Positions 39,001 through 63,000 of a stretch of DNA of 64,000 nucleotides are shown piece after piece. Origin of the DNA: Octopus vulgaris (taxonomy: Eukaryota); NCBI GenBank assembly GCA_951406725.2, contig OX597815.1, forward strand, positions 148,304,001-148,368,000, given 5' to 3'. The position numbers are program-made. The first letter of the stretch is position 1; the number at the start of each line of letters is the position of its first letter.

Positions 39001-42000
39001 TATATATGGGAAAATTGAAAAAGGAGACAAACGCACAAGATGTTATCAAATCCTTTATATGTGCATATCATCTACATATGTTTCGATGAATGCATACAAG
39101 ATACGTCCGACGGGATGAATAATGATTAACTATGCATCAATCTTAGGGAGGACATAAACAACAGTAAACCTCAAACAGACATTTTAACAGATAGTTAAGC
39201 AACATTTACATACCATGTAATTACTCCCCTGGATTTTTCTTCTAAATGGTACGTTATTATATATATATATATATATATACATTATTGAAAAGCAGAAGAG
39301 TTATAACAAAAACTCTTACTCAGAGTTTCACGTTCCCATGCCTCGGGAAAAACTGTCCGACGAACAGAAATGTGAAACTCTGAATTACAGGTCTTATGAT
39401 ATTCCTGCTGTTTTTCAATAAAACATATTATTCTACCTGTATTATTCGAGTACTACTTTTTCCACCTTGTTTCGCATGTATGCGCTTAATCCAGTATATA
39501 TATATATGTATATATATTCACACACACACGTAGGCATACAAGCTCATGACATTTCTTACATTCATTAAGAAGGAGTCGAGCATGTTTTGAAAAATATATA
39601 GCTTTAAATGCGTTGAACTAAAGGCAAGAAGGTGAACCAGGCGCAGGGGTGATTGTGTGATAAGTAGCTTGCTTACCAACTACATGGTTCCGGATTCATT
39701 CCCACTAAGTGGCACCTTGGGCAAGTGTCTTCTACTATTGCCTGGCGCCGACCAAAGCCTTGTGAGTGGATTTGGTAGACGGAAACTGAAAGACCCCGTC
39801 GTATATATGTATTTATATGTATGTGTGTATATATGCTTGGGTGTCTGTGTTTGTTACCCCAAAATCGTTTGACAACCGATGCTAGTGTGTTTGCGTCCCC
39901 GTCATATAGCGGTTCGGCAAAAGTGACCGATAGAATAAGTACTAGGCTTCAAAAGAATAGGTCCTGGCATCGATTTACTCGACTAAAGGCGGTGCTTCAC
40001 CATGGCCGCAGTCAAATGACTGAAAGATGTAAAAGAGTAAATGATTATATATCACGTTACGGTTATGACTGTATTTTGCCGTGTAATTGAATAGTGTTTG
40101 TAAGAGATAATATGTTTCATATTTCATCATTTCTTGTAATATTCTCTGCTCCCATAGTTCCGAAGTGAGTTACCTTCATATAAAAAGATGGGGGAAGTAT
40201 GTTTCCATACGAAAGAATATTATAAATAATGCAGAAATAACACGCGGTAGTTTCTATCTCTCTAGCATTCCAGCATTATAATAGCCTCGGCTTATGTTGT
40301 CTCCCAGTGATTAATATACTCTTTAATAAAAGGCATTTAAACCTCATATTATGTCCATCAGTGTTGAGAGTAAAGTGCATCACAATTTATCAATTTTCAT
40401 TATTTTGAAAAATTTCGTATCATCTCGGAATTCACGTTGTCCATTCACTAAAGATTTCGAGAATTTATCTCGAGTTATCACTCCACTCTTAATCATCCTT
40501 CGATTTGCAAATCAGGAATATAAAAGGGGAGTGAAAATTCAATAGATATTTCGCTGTATGTTTATGTGATAATAAGCTTCATGAACACGGTCGAATGAAC
40601 AGCTTTGTAATTTACGTAGTGGAATACATTTATCACGGTGTAGTATAAACAACATTTAATAAAGAACAAGGTAATTCATTAGATTTTCAATTTAGTTATC
40701 GGAAGTTATTTTAGTTCACTGTTTCATAACATAATACGGGTGACCTTTACTTTATGTGGACTTCAATATATTAATCTTCCTCTAGTTACAAAAGTTTACA
40801 TTACAGTCAGTAAACATCACCGCCATGATTTCTTTTTCAATATATATTACCTTAACACCGCCACTATAATTCATTTTAGAATATTTCAAGATCCTTGGAG
40901 CATATATACATACATACATACATACATATATATATATATATATATATATATATATGTCTCTAATTAATATTATATATATATATATATATATGTACATATA
41001 CATGTGTATGTATGTGTACATATGTGTGTATATATGTATATATATTTATATATATATATACATATATATGTACACATATATGTATATGTGTATGTATATA
41101 TATATATATATATATATATATATATATATATATATATATATAGATAGATAGATAGATAGATAGATAGATAGATAGACACATACATACATAGATACATACA
41201 TATATGCATATATGCATGTATGTATCTCTGTCCGTGCTCTTCTGATCCTTTAAGAATGATTCTTTGTGTTTGTGACTTTTGTAATGGGAAACGCTCAACG
41301 GGGCATGCTTTCCTTTAATTTTCAACAAGAAATGGTAAAACCTTGCAAAGCTTAACAGCCTGCAGAAATTTAATGCAAATTTCTGGTTCTTCTCCAGAAT
41401 TGATTAAAACGTATACTCCTTTCAAAATATTTCAAGCCTTAAGCTTATGGATGGAAGGAATATTAGTTTATAATATAGCACAAGACCAGCACTTTTTGCG
41501 GACAAAGTAAATCGTTTACATCAACCCTCAACTGTTCAACACTATTTATAGCATGGATCCTGAAGGTAAAATGGAAGTTTGTCTCTAGCGGCTTCTGAAG
41601 CTCAGAATTTAAAGTAGGAAGAAAAGCCGCTAGGCAATTTGCCGGGAGCGGTAACAATGCTCACAGCTCACAAACTTCATAGAAAGAAATATTAAATATT
41701 ACTCAAATATTTGGTAAATAAATCACATTTCCCTACTAACGTATACATACGAGTGCGTATATGTGTTTCGGTGTGTGTGTGTGTGTGTGTGTGTGTGTGT
41801 GTGTGTGTGTGTGTGTGTGTGCGTGCGTATGCGTATGTGTCAGTGTGTGTTTATGATTAGTTATAAAATAATACAGAAGACTGTATATTTCATATTTGTA
41901 TGCATTAAAAGAAATTTTTTAATTTCTTAAATTTCATTAAACTATAATATTTAATCCACTTCTATGTTTAAGAGACGTGGAATTATGTACATTATTTACA

Positions 42001-60000: not shown

Positions 60001-63000
60001 ATTTCTTATATTTTCAAAGTGGTGACATTTGATGGATTGGGATGTCTTGAGGGCAACTGCTAATCCTCAAGTACTTTTATAGGGATTGAATTCCGCTAAG
60101 TGTCTTAAACAATTATGATGAAAGTCTGCTGAGCGTCCTGGTCCAAAGTGTGATGAGCGTCATCTCTCAATGACAATTCTCTGGAACGAACTTTTGAAAA
60201 CTAATATTTTTTAGCTGTTTCTGTTCTCATAATATCACATGTTGAATATGCACCTCTACTTCATTCATTTTAGGGGATTGAAATTTAATATTCTTTTCTA
60301 CTCTTGGTACAAAACCTGAAATTTTGCATGGAAATGTCCAGTCATTTCCATCGACCCCAGTACGCTACTTGTACTTAATTTATACAGAATGAAAAGCAAA
60401 GCCGACCCCGGTGGAATTTGAGCTCAGGACGTAAAGACAAACGAACTACCGCTAAATATTTCGCCCGGCGTACTAACGTTTCTGCCAGCCCGTCGTTTTG
60501 TGAAATGTAATATTAAACTATGAGGTGCACACTTTCAAGGATTAAATACGAATGACAGATGAGCGCCGTTTGAAAACGATAGTTTCCATTTAAATTTTAA
60601 ACATAGGAAGTTCGGTATGTTCCATTACAATTTACTTTCCAAAGACGGAAATCTTTTATGACTTAATCCAGTACATACATACATACATATATACATATAT
60701 ATATATATATATATATATGTATATATATATATATATATATATATATATATATATGTGTGTGTGTGTGTGTGTGTGTGTGTGGAGGCGCAATGGCTAGGGC
60801 AGCGGACTCACGGTCAGAGTATTGCCGTTTCGATTCCCAGACCGTGCGAAATGAGTGTTTATTGAGCGAAAACACTTAAAGCTCCACGAAGCTTCGGCAG
60901 GGGATTTTGACGAACCCTGCTGTACTCTTTCACCACAGCTTTCTCTCACGCTTTCCTCCTGTTTCTGTTATACTTGTATTTCAAAGGGCCAGCCTTGTCA
61001 CCCAAAAAACTACGTTAATGGTTCACGTGTCCGTGGAACACTCAGCCACTTGCAGGCTGTTCCATTGATTGAATGAACCGGAACCATCGTCGTTGTAACC
61101 GACGGTGGGCCTTACTAATATGTATATGTGCGTGTGTATGTGTGTGTGTGCCTGTGCGTGTATGTGTGCAGTTGTGGTGGGTTGTACTAGTACACATGCA
61201 TATATACATACAGGTATACAGGTCCGAGATATGATAAACAGAAGTAGATATCATTTGTTCACTTTATACTCGTCACCGAGAAGTTTGCTTGGAACTTCTG
61301 CATTACATGTACCATTGGTAATCTACGAGGATCTCAAACCTCAACAGCAGTAGTTACACATCTAGCATCTAGCTATGCACATCAGATATGCCATATGTAA
61401 GGGCGTGCGCGTATATGCATGTTTGTCCATATTCCATAAAATGTTATATGTTATATATATATTATATAAAAGGGCTTAGTAAAATAAATTACTTTGCCGC
61501 ATACTGAACTCATTAGAAATAGCAGCTATAAAACTTTTTAAAGCTATTTCTAATACTTAAAGAAAATCTCTCTCATATAGTGTTTGCTTAACTCAACTCA
61601 CAAAAGTTTGGGGTAAGGACATCAAAAAATCAAATGCAAAGGTTTTGCATTTGATTTTTTGATGTCCTTACCCCCAAACTTTTGTGAGTTGAGTTAAGCA
61701 AACACTATATGAGAGAGATTTTCTTTAAGTATTAGAAATAGCTTTAAAAAAGTTTTATAGCTGCTATTTCTAATGAGTTCAGTATGCGGCAAAGTAATTT
61801 ATTTTACTAAGCCCTTTATATAATGTAATAATTTGAATTCGCCTTAAATGGTCCCTTTGCATACTGAACACTTGGTGAAATTGATTAATAATTAATTAAT
61901 TTTACCCTCAATTGTTGAAATGTTATATATATATATATATATATATATATATATATATATAGTACTGTATAAATTAGTTATAACCTGTTGCCGTTGACAG
62001 GTGTCATGCACTTCACCACTGCAAGGTCGAAGTATATGATATCGACAAATAATGCTAATTCCAAACCCTATAGTGTATGTAGTTCTTTGTTGATTAGAAG
62101 CAATATCCAATCATTTATTGAACAATATAAGCTGTAATGAGCAACATGGGATTTCTGGAAATGTCACGTTGCTGCAATTTATATTTATTTAAGTTTTGTT
62201 AATGTATTCACGGACAACTATTATATTACGAATAGGAGAACGCTCGATTGCAAAGTTCATTATTAGATGTAACTTCATAACTAAATGTGTTTCAATCGCC
62301 GACGTTTATGTGGTTCACTAGGATATGATGTGTAATACGCCTAATCAAGACTCATGGTTTTTCAGTCAGTTCCTATTATCTTAATACTGGTAAACTAAGA
62401 TTCAGGAACATATGCCTGAAATTTCATGAAATATTTCTTGTGAGAGAGAAACTACATTCTCTGTATCACGATTGCAACCATAGTGTCTTTTACGGAGAAT
62501 AGTTGGATATGCATGTGAGCAGAAAGTATCCATCACAAAAAGGCTAAAGTCGCTGCACTTAAAACTGCGTTCAAACAATATTCTCTGTGTAACATGGAGT
62601 GCTGGAAGACTTAGGATGATGTATGACAGTGGGCAGGGTCTGTAACATGATTTCGATGGATTGATATTTTGATTCTTGAGTACTTTATATTTTTCATTAA
62701 TTCATCGCTATTTACGGTTTCCGAATATTGCAAATATGTATATATATATATATATATATATATATATATATATATATATATATATATATATATATAATAA
62801 AGGACATTGAATTGATATTTTATTATATTCCTAATCCAGAAACACATTCGTCAATATATATATATATATATATATATATATATATATATATATATTGAAA
62901 TAATATTGATAAAATATTTAAATCAACAGATTTACATTATTAAATTCATGCCAAATGTTTGCTTATAGTTTTAATTGAATACAACTCTTATGATTTCACC

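What the first reader, a model, noticed from the sequence alone, without database searches (positions are those of the whole stretch)
39282..61920. Recurrent geometry: unrelated families insert as head-to-head dimers with 3' ends facing outward, usually into (TA)n
Seen at 39.3k, 42.0k, 48.9k, 51.5k, 53.8k and 61.5k: inverted arms of unequal length joined at truncated 5' ends. Where an HHR defines the sense strand, both arms read outward. Most are bounded by TA microsatellites (42.0k and 48.9k are not clearly so). Established: Penelope insertions often have 3' ends at both termini. Inference: one TA-preferring PLE RT/endonuclease primes on both strands of a break and mobilises many non-coding passengers, which may also multiply TA tracts. 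The 49.6-50.3k insert seems to have the opposite orientation and does not fit.
Basis: partly seen in the sequence, partly recalled or inferred. Interest (0 to 1): 0.7.

Follow-up and report, generated by a model that had tools for sequence, protein, structure and literature searches.

The report
Head-to-head retroelement dimers in TA repeats
Several short non-coding mobile elements in this octopus-like DNA sit as back-to-back inverted pairs, mostly inside TA repeats, in the pattern already described for Penelope-like retroelements, so this is a clear example of a known insertion style, not a new one.

Summary
Partly confirmed. Non-microsatellite inverted repeats exist at all six sites. 48.9k and 51.5k are one family, so there are five families. 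A seventh pair at 43.8k was missed.

Unequal arm length comes mainly from a 51-97 nt extension on the outer end of one arm. It is less often due to unequal inner truncation.

Long target-site duplications bracket whole dimers: 11 nt at 48.9k and 15 nt at 61.5k. That excludes MITEs.

Truncated or unpaired single copies exist (23.5k, 54.4k, 50.2k). Partial tandems exist at 53.96-54.66k and 32.1-32.8k.

TA-rich flanks occur at 4 of 6 sites. Repeat boundaries across the window are about six-fold enriched at TA tract edges.

No hammerhead ribozyme was found at any of the six sites. No GIY-YIG or PLE reading frame was found in 201 ORFs.

The architecture matches published Penelope-like element insertions: an inverted 5'-truncated copy, a pseudo-LTR tandem, a one-sided "tail", a (TA)n target, and extension of both DNA strands. 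These are most likely non-autonomous, hammerhead-less passengers of a PLE. That rests on architecture alone. The claim of one shared enzyme is untested.

The parts
39282..39346 (-). 39.3k short arm; its outer end abuts (TA)11 at 39258-39279
   Evidence: 3 nt from the tract; one search left flank p=0.019
39357..39494 (+). 39.3k long arm (39357-39428) plus a one-sided 66-nt extension (39429-39494) that ends at a TA tract at 39495
   Evidence: That the extension belongs to the element is inferred, because there is no second copy in the window
41966..42095 (-). 42.0k left arm. No TA flank. Polarity not established
   Evidence: 106/130 against the right arm; no hammerhead
42096..42386 (.). 42.0k centre: 72 nt unique, then (AAT)n 42168-42235, (CAC)n 42236-42261 and (CAA)n 42260-42343, then 43 nt
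   Evidence: the inner parts are not alignable (12/16 only)
42387..42514 (+). 42.0k right arm. Its outer end meets a SINE-like repeat starting near 42518
43766..43913 (.). No TA flanks; a short TA run lies in the 41-nt spacer
48869..48879 (.). Left copy of the 11-nt target-site duplication TTCATAAGAAA of the 48.9k insertion
   Evidence: empirical p=0.0067
48883..49071 (-). 48.9k long arm: full unit of about 189 nt, including the 59-nt terminal extension ('tail') at its left end
   Evidence: 48892-49071 matches 51536-51713
49072..49152 (+). 48.9k short arm. It lacks the tail at its outer end and is about 50 nt shorter at its inner (5') end than the 51.5k short arm
49153..49163 (.). Right copy of the 11-nt target-site duplication
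50157..50309 (-). Diverged, 5'-truncated single copy of the 53.8k family. Its truncated end lies 6 nt from the (TA)n starting at 50315.
   Evidence: 68.6% over 121; 68.8% over 170
51528..51713 (-). 51.5k long arm with a 51-nt tail. Its terminus directly abuts (AT)27 at 51474-51527
51717..51845 (+). 51.5k short arm. It reaches the same inner point as the long arm, lacks the tail, and ends in a short TA-rich patch
53741..53954 (-). 53.8k copy A: inverted, with its outer end cut at an internal TA-rich stretch of the unit. It lies next to the CA/TA array at 53620-53707
   Evidence: A/C 160/195. The inner 30 nt are only weakly alignable
53964..54660 (+). 53.8k partial tandem: B (53964-54192, 5'-truncated), a 197-nt body (54193-54389), and C (54390-54660), ending at the (AT)n from 54649
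   Evidence: 53964-54192 matches 54431-54660 at 84.4%; 82.5% over 252
61448..61462 (.). Left copy of the 15-nt target-site duplication ATGTTATATATATAT of the 61.5k insertion
   Evidence: empirical p=0.0003
61463..61640 (-). 61.5k short arm. It ends 6-7 nt into the extension, at an internal TATATAA
   Evidence: 184/189
61644..61919 (+). 61.5k long arm plus a 97-nt extension. The extension is contiguous with the arm in a diverged relative at 32607-32753
   Evidence: 67.6% over 148 columns
61920..61934 (.). Right copy of the 15-nt target-site duplication, running into (TA)19 at 61924-61961
23453..23584 (+). Single-arm, 5'-truncated copy of the 48.9k/51.5k family. The tail end is intact at the (AT)n starting at 23585, and there is imperfect TA on the other side
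32112..32753 (-). Relative of the 61.5k family as a circularly permuted unit plus a terminal direct repeat of about 56 nt (X 32112-32167, X' 32698-32753). This is a partial tandem with TA tracts on both sides (32069-32104 and 32753-32823)

Best explanation
These are short, non-coding, non-autonomous retroelements of about 140-470 nt per unit, from at least five unrelated families. Their insertions were made by an enzyme of the Penelope-like element type.

Proposed steps (each inferred unless a call or paper is cited):
1. The enzyme cuts both strands of an AT-rich target, most often a (TA)n tract.
2. Each freed 3' end primes reverse transcription of the element RNA.
3. Each cDNA runs toward the RNA 5' end, sometimes stopping early.
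4. The two cDNAs are joined head to head. This gives an inverted pair whose constant 3' ends face outward and which is flanked by one target duplication.
5. Reverse transcription starts at one of two sites 51-97 nt apart. One arm therefore carries a terminal extension ('tail') and the other does not.
6. Template jumps give the partial tandems, and a one-sided reaction gives the single copies.
7. Each insertion splits a TA tract and duplicates part of it.

Shown here: the architecture, the target duplications, the shared termini and the TA enrichment. Inferred: the polarity of 39.3k and 61.5k, the identity of the enzyme, and the steps of the reaction.
For: 1. One event per dimer: 11-nt (48.9k) and 15-nt (61.5k, including the non-TA letters ATGT) direct repeats bracket the whole dimer plus extension (p=0.0067 and 0.0003).
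2. Constant and variable ends in the 48.9k/51.5k family:
- 3 of 3 copies share the extension terminus within about 3 nt.
- Both long arms stop at the same inner point (48892-49071 matches 51536-51713).
- The 23.5k copy is a single arm truncated at the inner end.
- Both short arms stop 59 and 51 nt short of the terminus, once at a TA target and once at a non-TA target. The second terminus is therefore a property of the element.
3. The pair is not intrinsic in the 53.8k family. Copy C has no inverted partner. A is inverted against a 5'-truncated B, and B-C form a partial tandem.
4. The extension is part of the element. In a 67.6%-identical relative at 32.6k, arm end and extension are contiguous. 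That locus is a permuted unit with a terminal direct repeat of about 56 nt between two TA tracts.
5. TA targeting: 4 of 14 inverted-repeat-defined ends have flanks in the top 3% of window positions. Across the window, 11 of 195 repeat-boundary clusters lie within 5 nt of a TA tract against a 0.9% background (p=2e-6). For CA/TG tracts the count is 1 of 195.
6. Arm divergence runs from 2.6% (61.5k) to about 30% (39.3k), so the process recurred over a long time.
7. Literature:
- PMC8557442 (passages): an inverted 5'-truncated copy next to the element, pseudo-LTR partial tandems, a tail at one end, (TA)n preferred by Naiads, which lack hammerheads, and non-autonomous derivatives.
- PMC11167929 (main text): a PLE protein cleaves and extends both strands, starts at two internal RNA sites that explain the tail, and cuts AT-rich DNA.
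- PMC13282606 (passages): Penelope-like elements are annotated in Octopus vulgaris.
Against: - No PLE reverse transcriptase or GIY-YIG nuclease in the window: 0 of 201 stop-to-stop ORFs of 65 aa or more.
- No hammerhead at 0 of 6 loci.
- The extensions (51-97 nt) are longer than the published 30-40 bp tail.
- The near-symmetrical inner junctions at 39.3k, 51.5k and 61.5k fit an inherited hairpin just as well.
- Arm identities in the 48.9k/51.5k family are star-like. Within-copy values (78.1% and 76.5%) are no higher than between-copy values (77-83%), so they do not distinguish the models.
- 39.3k and 42.0k have no second copy in the window.
- 42.0k and 43.8k have no TA flank and carry a microsatellite in the centre.
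- At 32.6k the TA tract abuts the truncated end, not the extension end.
- Polarity in the 48.9k/51.5k family rests on a single truncated copy.
- No 3' motif is shared among families (by eye, and no cross-family hits).
- Only 64 kb was examined. No genome of this organism was available to the tools.
Confidence: 0.6

Rival explanations
1. The passengers are mobilised by a microsatellite-specific non-LTR (LINE) enzyme, for example an R2/R4/Dong-type element, and not by a PLE. The dimers would then be by-products of its target-primed reverse transcription.
For: - An apparently young LINE at 34684-38389 (minus strand) has an RVT_1 domain.
- Its closest solved structures are R2 proteins (9nl3_A, E=5.6e-23).
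- It lies between (TTA)11 at 34459-34491 and (TAT)17 at 38860-38910, so it appears to sit in a (TAA)n target.
- Dong-R4 LINEs are listed as abundant in O. vulgaris (PMC13282606, table passage).
- Target duplications of 11-15 nt are also usual for LINE-driven insertion (recalled).
Against: - In PMC11167929, R2Bm and LINE-1 are said to nick and extend only the bottom strand.
- Inverted plus tandem plus one-sided-tail architecture is described there and in PMC8557442 as peculiar to PLEs.
- The only similarity between this LINE's 3' end and the families is T-rich low-complexity sequence (44 nt at 77% and 60 nt at 68%).
- This LINE's target is TAA, not TA.
Confidence: 0.15
2. Each family is an intrinsically palindromic unit: a hairpin-shaped retroposon or a foldback/MITE-like DNA element. 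It is copied as a whole, so the inverted repeat is inherited and not made at insertion.
For: - The arms meet within 3-10 nt at 39.3k, 51.5k and 61.5k.
- Both dimers of the 48.9k/51.5k family have the same asymmetry.
- The A/B repeat of 53.8k ends in TA|CAGTG...CACTG|TA. This recalls Tc1/mariner ends with a TA duplication (recalled, not tested).
- TA flanks would suit a TA-duplicating transposase.
Against: - Target duplications are 11 and 15 nt and enclose the one-sided extension.
- Copy C of the 53.8k family has no inverted partner, and its relative D runs through the supposed terminus.
- The relative of the 61.5k family at 32k is not palindromic.
- In 48.9k the shorter arm is cut exactly from the centre outward.
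- Arm lengths differ between the two dimers of one family: 81 against 129 nt.
Confidence: 0.12
3. The pairs arise without reverse transcription. They would be fold-back or template-switch repair at fragile (TA)n tracts, or independent nested insertions into the same TA hot spot that lie head to head by chance.
For: - TA tracts are dense: 59 tracts covering 3.1% of the window.
- Repeat ends cluster at them.
- 39.3k and 42.0k have no other copy in the window.
Against: - Two dimers are each bracketed by one long target duplication. That is not expected from two separate insertions or from local fold-back copying.
- No TA lies between the arms at 39.3k, 48.9k, 51.5k, 53.8k or 61.5k.
- 48.9k is not at a TA tract at all.
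- Three families have dispersed copies.
Confidence: 0.06

Closest known systems
Penelope-like elements, especially the Naiad clade (Craig et al. 2021, PMC8557442)
   Same: An inverted 5'-truncated copy joined head to head; partial tandems (pseudo-LTRs); an extension at only one end; 5' truncation; preference for (TA)n that obscures target duplications; no hammerhead in Naiads.
   Different: There is no coding capacity here and no PLE gene in the window. Units are 140-470 nt, not 3.4-4.4 kb. Extensions are 51-97 nt, not 30-40 bp. Clade assignment is impossible without the enzyme.
In vitro mechanism of the Anolis PLE 'PAc' (Frangieh et al. 2024, PMC11167929)
   Same: Cleavage and extension of both DNA strands; AT-rich cleavage sites; two alternative internal start sites for reverse transcription that give copies with and without the tail. 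The short arms of the 48.9k/51.5k family end at the same internal point at a TA target and at a non-TA target.
   Different: That work used an autonomous, hammerhead-bearing vertebrate element in a test tube. Head-to-head joining in vivo was not shown there. Here nothing biochemical is known.
Metazoan non-LTR retrozymes and other non-autonomous PLE derivatives (bioRxiv 10.64898/2026.07.22.740005, abstract and outline seen; non-autonomous Chlamys in PMC8557442)
   Same: Short non-coding repeats, sometimes in tandem, proposed to ride on PLE machinery.
   Different: Retrozymes are defined by hammerhead ribozymes and tandem arrays. No hammerhead was found here (0 of 6 loci), and inverted dimers dominate.
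MITEs / foldback DNA elements with a TA duplication (Tc1/mariner-derived; recalled)
   Same: Small, non-coding, inverted repeats, TA at the borders.
   Different: Target duplications are 11 and 15 nt. One-sided extension inside the duplicated borders. Unpaired and tandem copies of the same families exist.
L1 twin-priming inversions (recalled)
   Same: Priming from both sides of a staggered break during retrotransposition; long target duplications.
   Different: Twin priming gives an inverted 5' piece next to a different 3' piece, not two overlapping copies of the same segment forming a palindrome.

Membership tests
Penelope-like element (autonomous) | Single ORF with a PLE-type reverse transcriptase and a GIY-YIG endonuclease | tested here: not met
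   0 of 201 ORFs of 65 aa or more match GIY-YIG. RVT_1 matches belong only to two LINEs.
PLE-type insertion / non-autonomous PLE derivative | Inverted 5'-truncated copy joined to the 5' end of another copy | tested here: met
   48.9k (short arm about 50 nt shorter at its inner end) and 53.8k (A against truncated B). 39.3k, 51.5k and 61.5k are head to head but near-symmetrical.
PLE-type insertion / non-autonomous PLE derivative | Partial tandem (pseudo-LTR) | tested here: met
   53964-54192 matches 54431-54660 at 84.4%. Terminal direct repeat of about 56 nt at 32112-32167 and 32698-32753.
PLE-type insertion / non-autonomous PLE derivative | Extension ('tail') at one end only, i.e. two alternative 3' termini | tested here: met
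   51 and 59 nt (48.9k/51.5k family); about 77-89 nt (53.8k); 97 nt (61.5k); 66 nt (39.3k).. All are longer than the published 30-40 bp.
PLE-type insertion / non-autonomous PLE derivative | AT-rich or (TA)n target | tested here: met
   4 of 6 listed loci. 42.0k and 48.9k are not at TA.
PLE-type insertion / non-autonomous PLE derivative | 3' end shared with an autonomous PLE of the same genome | not testable with these tools
   No genome of this organism and no PLE sequence were available.
Canonical PLE pLTR / metazoan retrozyme | Hammerhead ribozyme motif | tested here: not met
   No Rfam hammerhead at gathering score in the window, nor at E<=10 in six local searches. Motif scans.
MITE (TIR DNA transposon derivative) | Short target duplication of constant length, and both termini inside the inverted repeat | tested here: not met
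   Duplications of 11 and 15 nt enclose a one-sided extension.
SINE (pol III, tRNA/5S-derived head) | tRNA-like or 5S-like 5' head | tested here: inconclusive
   ARAGORN finds no tRNA-like gene in the window. A and B boxes were not searched. The centre of 42.0k only looked tRNA-like by eye.
L1-type twin priming | Inverted and direct segments come from different, adjacent parts of the template | tested here: not met
   The arms cover the same family positions and form palindromes.

The most novel reading that the evidence does not exclude
Octopus genomes may hold a large guild of SINE-sized, hammerhead-less, non-coding families that are not LINE-dependent SINEs. They would be passengers of a TA-specific Penelope-like (Naiad-type) enzyme. 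Their head-to-head dimers would be an in vivo footprint of the both-strand priming so far seen only in vitro. Their two start sites would lie up to about 100 nt apart. Their insertions would split and duplicate TA tracts, so they would drive the abundance of TA microsatellites. Many of the families annotated as 'unclassified SINE' in O. vulgaris (893 families in the table of PMC13282606) could belong to this guild.
Probability: 0.3. Interest if true: 0.55.

Novelty: new member of a known kind. Interest (0 to 1): 0.35.

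Why it matters
If the reading holds, these loci are natural records of a reaction step shown only in a test tube: a Penelope-like enzyme extending both strands of a break and starting at two internal sites. They would show that this machinery carries many unrelated non-coding passengers in a cephalopod.

Three practical consequences follow:
- Repeat annotation: such dimers are easily called MITEs, hairpin RNA genes or unknown SINEs.
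- Microsatellite marker design: TA tracts are linked to mobile flanks.
- The origin of TA-tract abundance.

The insertion architecture, the TA preference and the existence of non-autonomous derivatives are already published. The gain is therefore an example and a testable extension, not a new principle.

Tried and rejected
- Hammerhead as a polarity marker: rejected. Rfam found none (top 150 only, 12, 20, 35-38). A strict CTGANGA-stem-GAAA scan found one site in the window, at 24472-24533, outside the finding. A relaxed scan found none in any arm. The by-eye motif at 42.0k does not fold as a hammerhead, and the two arms fold differently.
- Arm-versus-copy identity test for 'made at insertion' against 'inherited hairpin': uninformative, because the pattern is star-like at 74-83%.
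- Tc1/mariner MITE reading of the 53.8k A/B pair (ends TA|CAGTG): rejected. Copies B, C and D continue through that point, and C has no partner.
- Reading B and C as two unrelated insertions against a tandem: left open. A's weak homology to the 30 nt upstream of C favours the tandem.
- Homology between the inner parts of the 42.0k arms: none (12/16 columns). The 42.0k geometry stays unresolved.
- A search for a PLE gene in the window: none found.
- tRNA-like heads: none.
- Similarity between the LINE 3' end and the families: low-complexity only.
- Not possible: more copies could not be sought. No genome-wide tally, no empty-site check and no search for the partner PLE were done.
- Supplements of PMC8557442 and PMC11167929 were not opened. 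They may hold tail lengths and target data that bear on the 51-97 nt extensions.

Full report
**Setting**

The window is AT-rich (28-42% G+C) and crowded with microsatellites. There are 102 tandem-repeat rows. There are 59 tracts of (TA)6 or longer, covering 3.1% of the window. The window contains no N.

An intact-looking LINE at 34684-38389 has partial matches of 89-95% identity to proteins named Octopus vulgaris. The DNA is therefore from an octopus or a close relative. I did not trace the unnamed records.

Self-comparison with low-complexity filtering gives self-inverse matches at seven places (arm identities):

| Locus | Arms | Identity |
|---|---|---|
| 39.3k | 39282-39421 | 63/91 |
| 42.0k | 41988-42095 / 42387-42493 | 106/130 |
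| 43.8k | 43766-43913 | 43/56 |
| 48.9k | 48957-49137 | 116/174 |
| 51.5k | 51579-51841 | 92/132 |
| 53.8k | 53741-54104 | A/B 134/165; A/C 160/195 |
| 61.5k | 61458-61827 | 184/189 |

- One search gives no such pair in 1-39 kb. In one search the 25 longest of the 76 inverted pairs found there all lie on microsatellite arrays listed. I did not see the other 51.

**Families**

- 48.9k and 51.5k are one family (48892-49071 matches 51536-51713 at 79.6% over 181). A third copy lies at 23.5k.
- The 53.8k family has three copies at the locus (A, B, C) and a diverged one (D) at 50157-50309.
- The 61.5k family has diverged relatives at 32107-32215 and 32607-32753.
- 39.3k and 42.0k have no other copy in the window.
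- No family matches another (word size 7, E<=0.01).
- The count is therefore five unrelated families, three of them demonstrably dispersed.

**Anatomy of the 48.9k/51.5k family**

- Three copies share one precise terminus within about 3 nt (alignment A1). It abuts (AT)27 at 51528 and the (AT)n from 23585. At 48.9k it abuts a non-TA flank.
- The 23.5k copy is a single arm of 132 nt, cut at the other end, with TA-rich sequence on both sides. The shared terminus therefore behaves as a constant 3' end, and the opposite end as a truncatable 5' end.
- In both dimers the long arm (48883-49071 and 51528-51713) runs to the same inner point.
- The short arms (49072-49152 and 51717-51845) both stop short of the terminus, by 59 and 51 nt.
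- In 48.9k the short arm is also about 50 nt shorter at its inner end.
- The whole 48.9k dimer is bracketed by TTCATAAGAAA at 48869 and 49153 (empirical p=0.0067 against 3000 random placements).

**Anatomy of 61.5k**

- Two arms of about 178 nt, 97.4% identical, meet within 3 nt.
- The right arm continues for 97 nt to 61919.
- The whole unit is bracketed by ATGTTATATATATAT at 61448 and 61920 (p=0.0003). The non-TA letters ATGT make this a credible target duplication at the edge of a (TA)n tract.
- The extension is not flanking DNA. In the relative at 32607-32753 the arm end and the extension are contiguous (67.6% over 148 columns).
- The short arm ends 6-7 nt into the extension.

**Anatomy of 53.8k**

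- B (53964-54192) and C (54431-54660) are direct repeats (84.4%; 82.5% over 252 columns). They are separated by 197 nt.
- The inverted copy A (53741-53923, perhaps to 53954) matches the start of C, and weakly the 30 nt before it. B-body-C therefore reads as a partial tandem of a unit of about 467 nt.
- A is joined head to head to the 5'-truncated B.
- A's outer end stops about 77-89 nt before the terminus that B and C share, at an internal TA-rich stretch. It lies next to the CA/TA array.
- C ends in the (AT)n from 54649 and has no inverted partner. In this family the inverted repeat is therefore not intrinsic.

**The 32k locus**

It shows the direct-repeat version: TA tract, X (32112-32167), 530 nt, X' (32698-32753), TA tract. 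X and X' are about 56 nt and identical apart from their borders. The family order is circularly permuted relative to 61.5k.

**TA association**

- By a 20-nt flank score, the left flanks of 39.3k, 51.5k, 53.8k and 61.5k are each in the top 1.4-3% of window positions.
- The inverted-repeat-defined right ends are not significant (p = 0.16, 0.16, 0.35, 0.08).
- TA is reached after the extension at 39494, 54648 and 61923 (p<=0.02). For 39.3k that boundary is set by the tract itself, so it is partly circular.
- 42.0k, 43.8k and 48.9k have no TA flank.
- As a check that does not depend on my boundaries, I hard-masked the microsatellites. Then 11 of 195 clusters of repeat-match ends lie within 5 nt of a TA tract, against a background of 0.9% (binomial p=2e-6). 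For CA/TG tracts the count is 1 of 195. Masking forces match ends at tracts for repeats that contain a tract. The CA/TG control shares that bias.

**Hammerhead**

This part of the finding is not supported. Three lines of evidence agree:
- Rfam gives none at gathering score in the window, and none at E<=10 in separate searches of all six loci. The hits are generic microRNA-hairpin models far below their cut-offs.
- My scans found one strict core-plus-stem site, at 24472-24533, which is outside the finding. They found none in any arm.
- At 42.0k the outward-reading strand of the left arm has CTGATGA, GAAAC and CCGTC in plausible order. The right arm has a 5-bp stem there, but its core is changed. 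No helix I partner is visible, and the two arms fold differently.

**Coding content**

All 201 stop-to-stop ORFs of 65 aa or more were scanned against Pfam (2, 139, 60). Only two LINEs appear:
- a degraded one (Exo_endo_phos_2 at 18894-19133 and RVT_1 at 20332-20649);
- the one at 34684-38389, whose nearest solved structures are R2 proteins.

No GIY-YIG domain was found.

**Interpretation**

Five features do not fit MITEs or ordinary SINE insertion:
- one long target duplication around each whole dimer;
- a constant outer terminus with truncation at the other end;
- a second discrete terminus 51-97 nt upstream, used by the partner arm;
- partial tandems of the same or related families;
- a TA-rich target.

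They match what is published for Penelope-like elements:
- PMC8557442 (passages read) describes frequent 5' truncation, partial tandems forming pseudo-LTRs, an inverted 5'-truncated copy adjacent at the 5' end, and a 30-40 bp tail often at one end only. It also describes (TA)n as a preferred Naiad target, absence of canonical hammerheads in Naiads, and non-autonomous Chlamys derivatives.
- PMC11167929 (main text read) shows that a purified PLE protein cleaves and extends both DNA strands, unlike R2Bm and LINE-1. It prefers AT-rich sites. It starts reverse transcription at two adjacent internal RNA sites that are not homologous to the target, and the stretch between them corresponds to the tail.
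- The short arms of the 48.9k/51.5k family end at the same place at a TA target and at a non-TA target. This fits a start site that belongs to the element and does not depend on pairing with the target.
- PMC8969392 (passages) lists inverted pLTRs and 3' extensions, and notes that retrozymes may depend on PLEs.
- The abstract of bioRxiv 10.64898/2026.07.22.740005 argues that animal retrozymes are non-autonomous PLE sequences.
- PMC13282606 (passages) lists Penelope-like and Dong-R4 elements in O. vulgaris.

**What stays open**

- The enzyme is inferred, not seen.
- The extensions are longer than the published tail.
- Symmetrical junctions at three loci fit an inherited hairpin equally well, and the arm-identity test could not decide.
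- 39.3k and 42.0k may not be mobile families at all.
- 42.0k (centre made of AAT, CAC and CAA repeats) and 43.8k (TA in the centre) may be tail-to-tail or something else.
- An R2-type LINE sitting in a (TAA)n tract in the same window is a plausible alternative driver.
- 'One enzyme for all families' is untested.
- The idea that insertion multiplies TA tracts is supported only in a narrow sense. The 61.5k duplication leaves TA on both sides of the insert.

**Verdict**

The geometry is real and non-random, apart from the corrections above. The hammerhead claim fails. The most likely cause is a known insertion mode acting on previously unclassified non-coding passengers. I rate the finding as new members of a known kind, of moderate interest.

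Noticed in passing
window 34684-38389 (minus strand), flanks 34347-34491 and 38860-38985: A near-intact LINE. Two adjacent ORFs of 869 and 376 aa carry RVT_1 and a weak zf-RVT match. The nearest solved structures are R2 proteins, and relatives are about 1200 aa. It lies between (TTA)11/(CTT)38 and (TAT)17/(ATC)n, so it looks inserted in a (TAA)n tract, as R4/Dong-type elements are (that target habit is recalled).
   Followed up: partly
window 32069-32823: A TA tract, a direct repeat of about 56 nt (32112-32167), 530 nt, the same repeat (32698-32753), then a TA tract. This is a circularly permuted relative of the 61.5k family, i.e. a pseudo-LTR-like partial tandem.
   Followed up: yes
window 43766-43913: An inverted pair (arms 52-55 nt, 43/56 identical) with a short TA run in its 41-nt spacer and no TA flanks.
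   Followed up: partly
window 18894-20649 (plus strand): A degraded LINE: an Exo_endo_phos_2 fragment (18894-19133) and an RVT_1 fragment (20332-20649).
   Followed up: no
window 39640-40050, 13733-14079, 42518-42966, 43524-43711, 54737-54989, 18290-18469: An abundant SINE-like repeat has an internal TA/TG microsatellite. Its two halves also occur separately, each next to a TA tract, and two 'second halves' lie in tandem at 42518-42966. The halves may be separate TA-associated elements.
   Followed up: no
window 23707-23916 (relatives at 386-561, 4646-4862, 33112-33286): A repeat that looked more G+C-rich than its flanks by eye sits exactly between two long TA tracts (23585-23706 and 23917-23996). 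This is another case of a repeat bounded by TA on both sides.
   Followed up: no
window 24472-24533 (plus strand): The only strict CTGANGA - 6-bp stem - GAAA arrangement in the window.
   Followed up: no
window 1-39000 versus 39000-62000: In the self-comparison all seven non-microsatellite inverted pairs lie in the second part of the window and none in the first 39 kb, although TA tracts are equally dense in both parts (37 and 22 tracts).
   Followed up: partly
window 53921-53957: A 17-nt unit repeated 2.1 times lies at or next to the A/B head-to-head junction of the 53.8k locus. It may be junction filler or the diverged inner end of copy A.
   Followed up: partly
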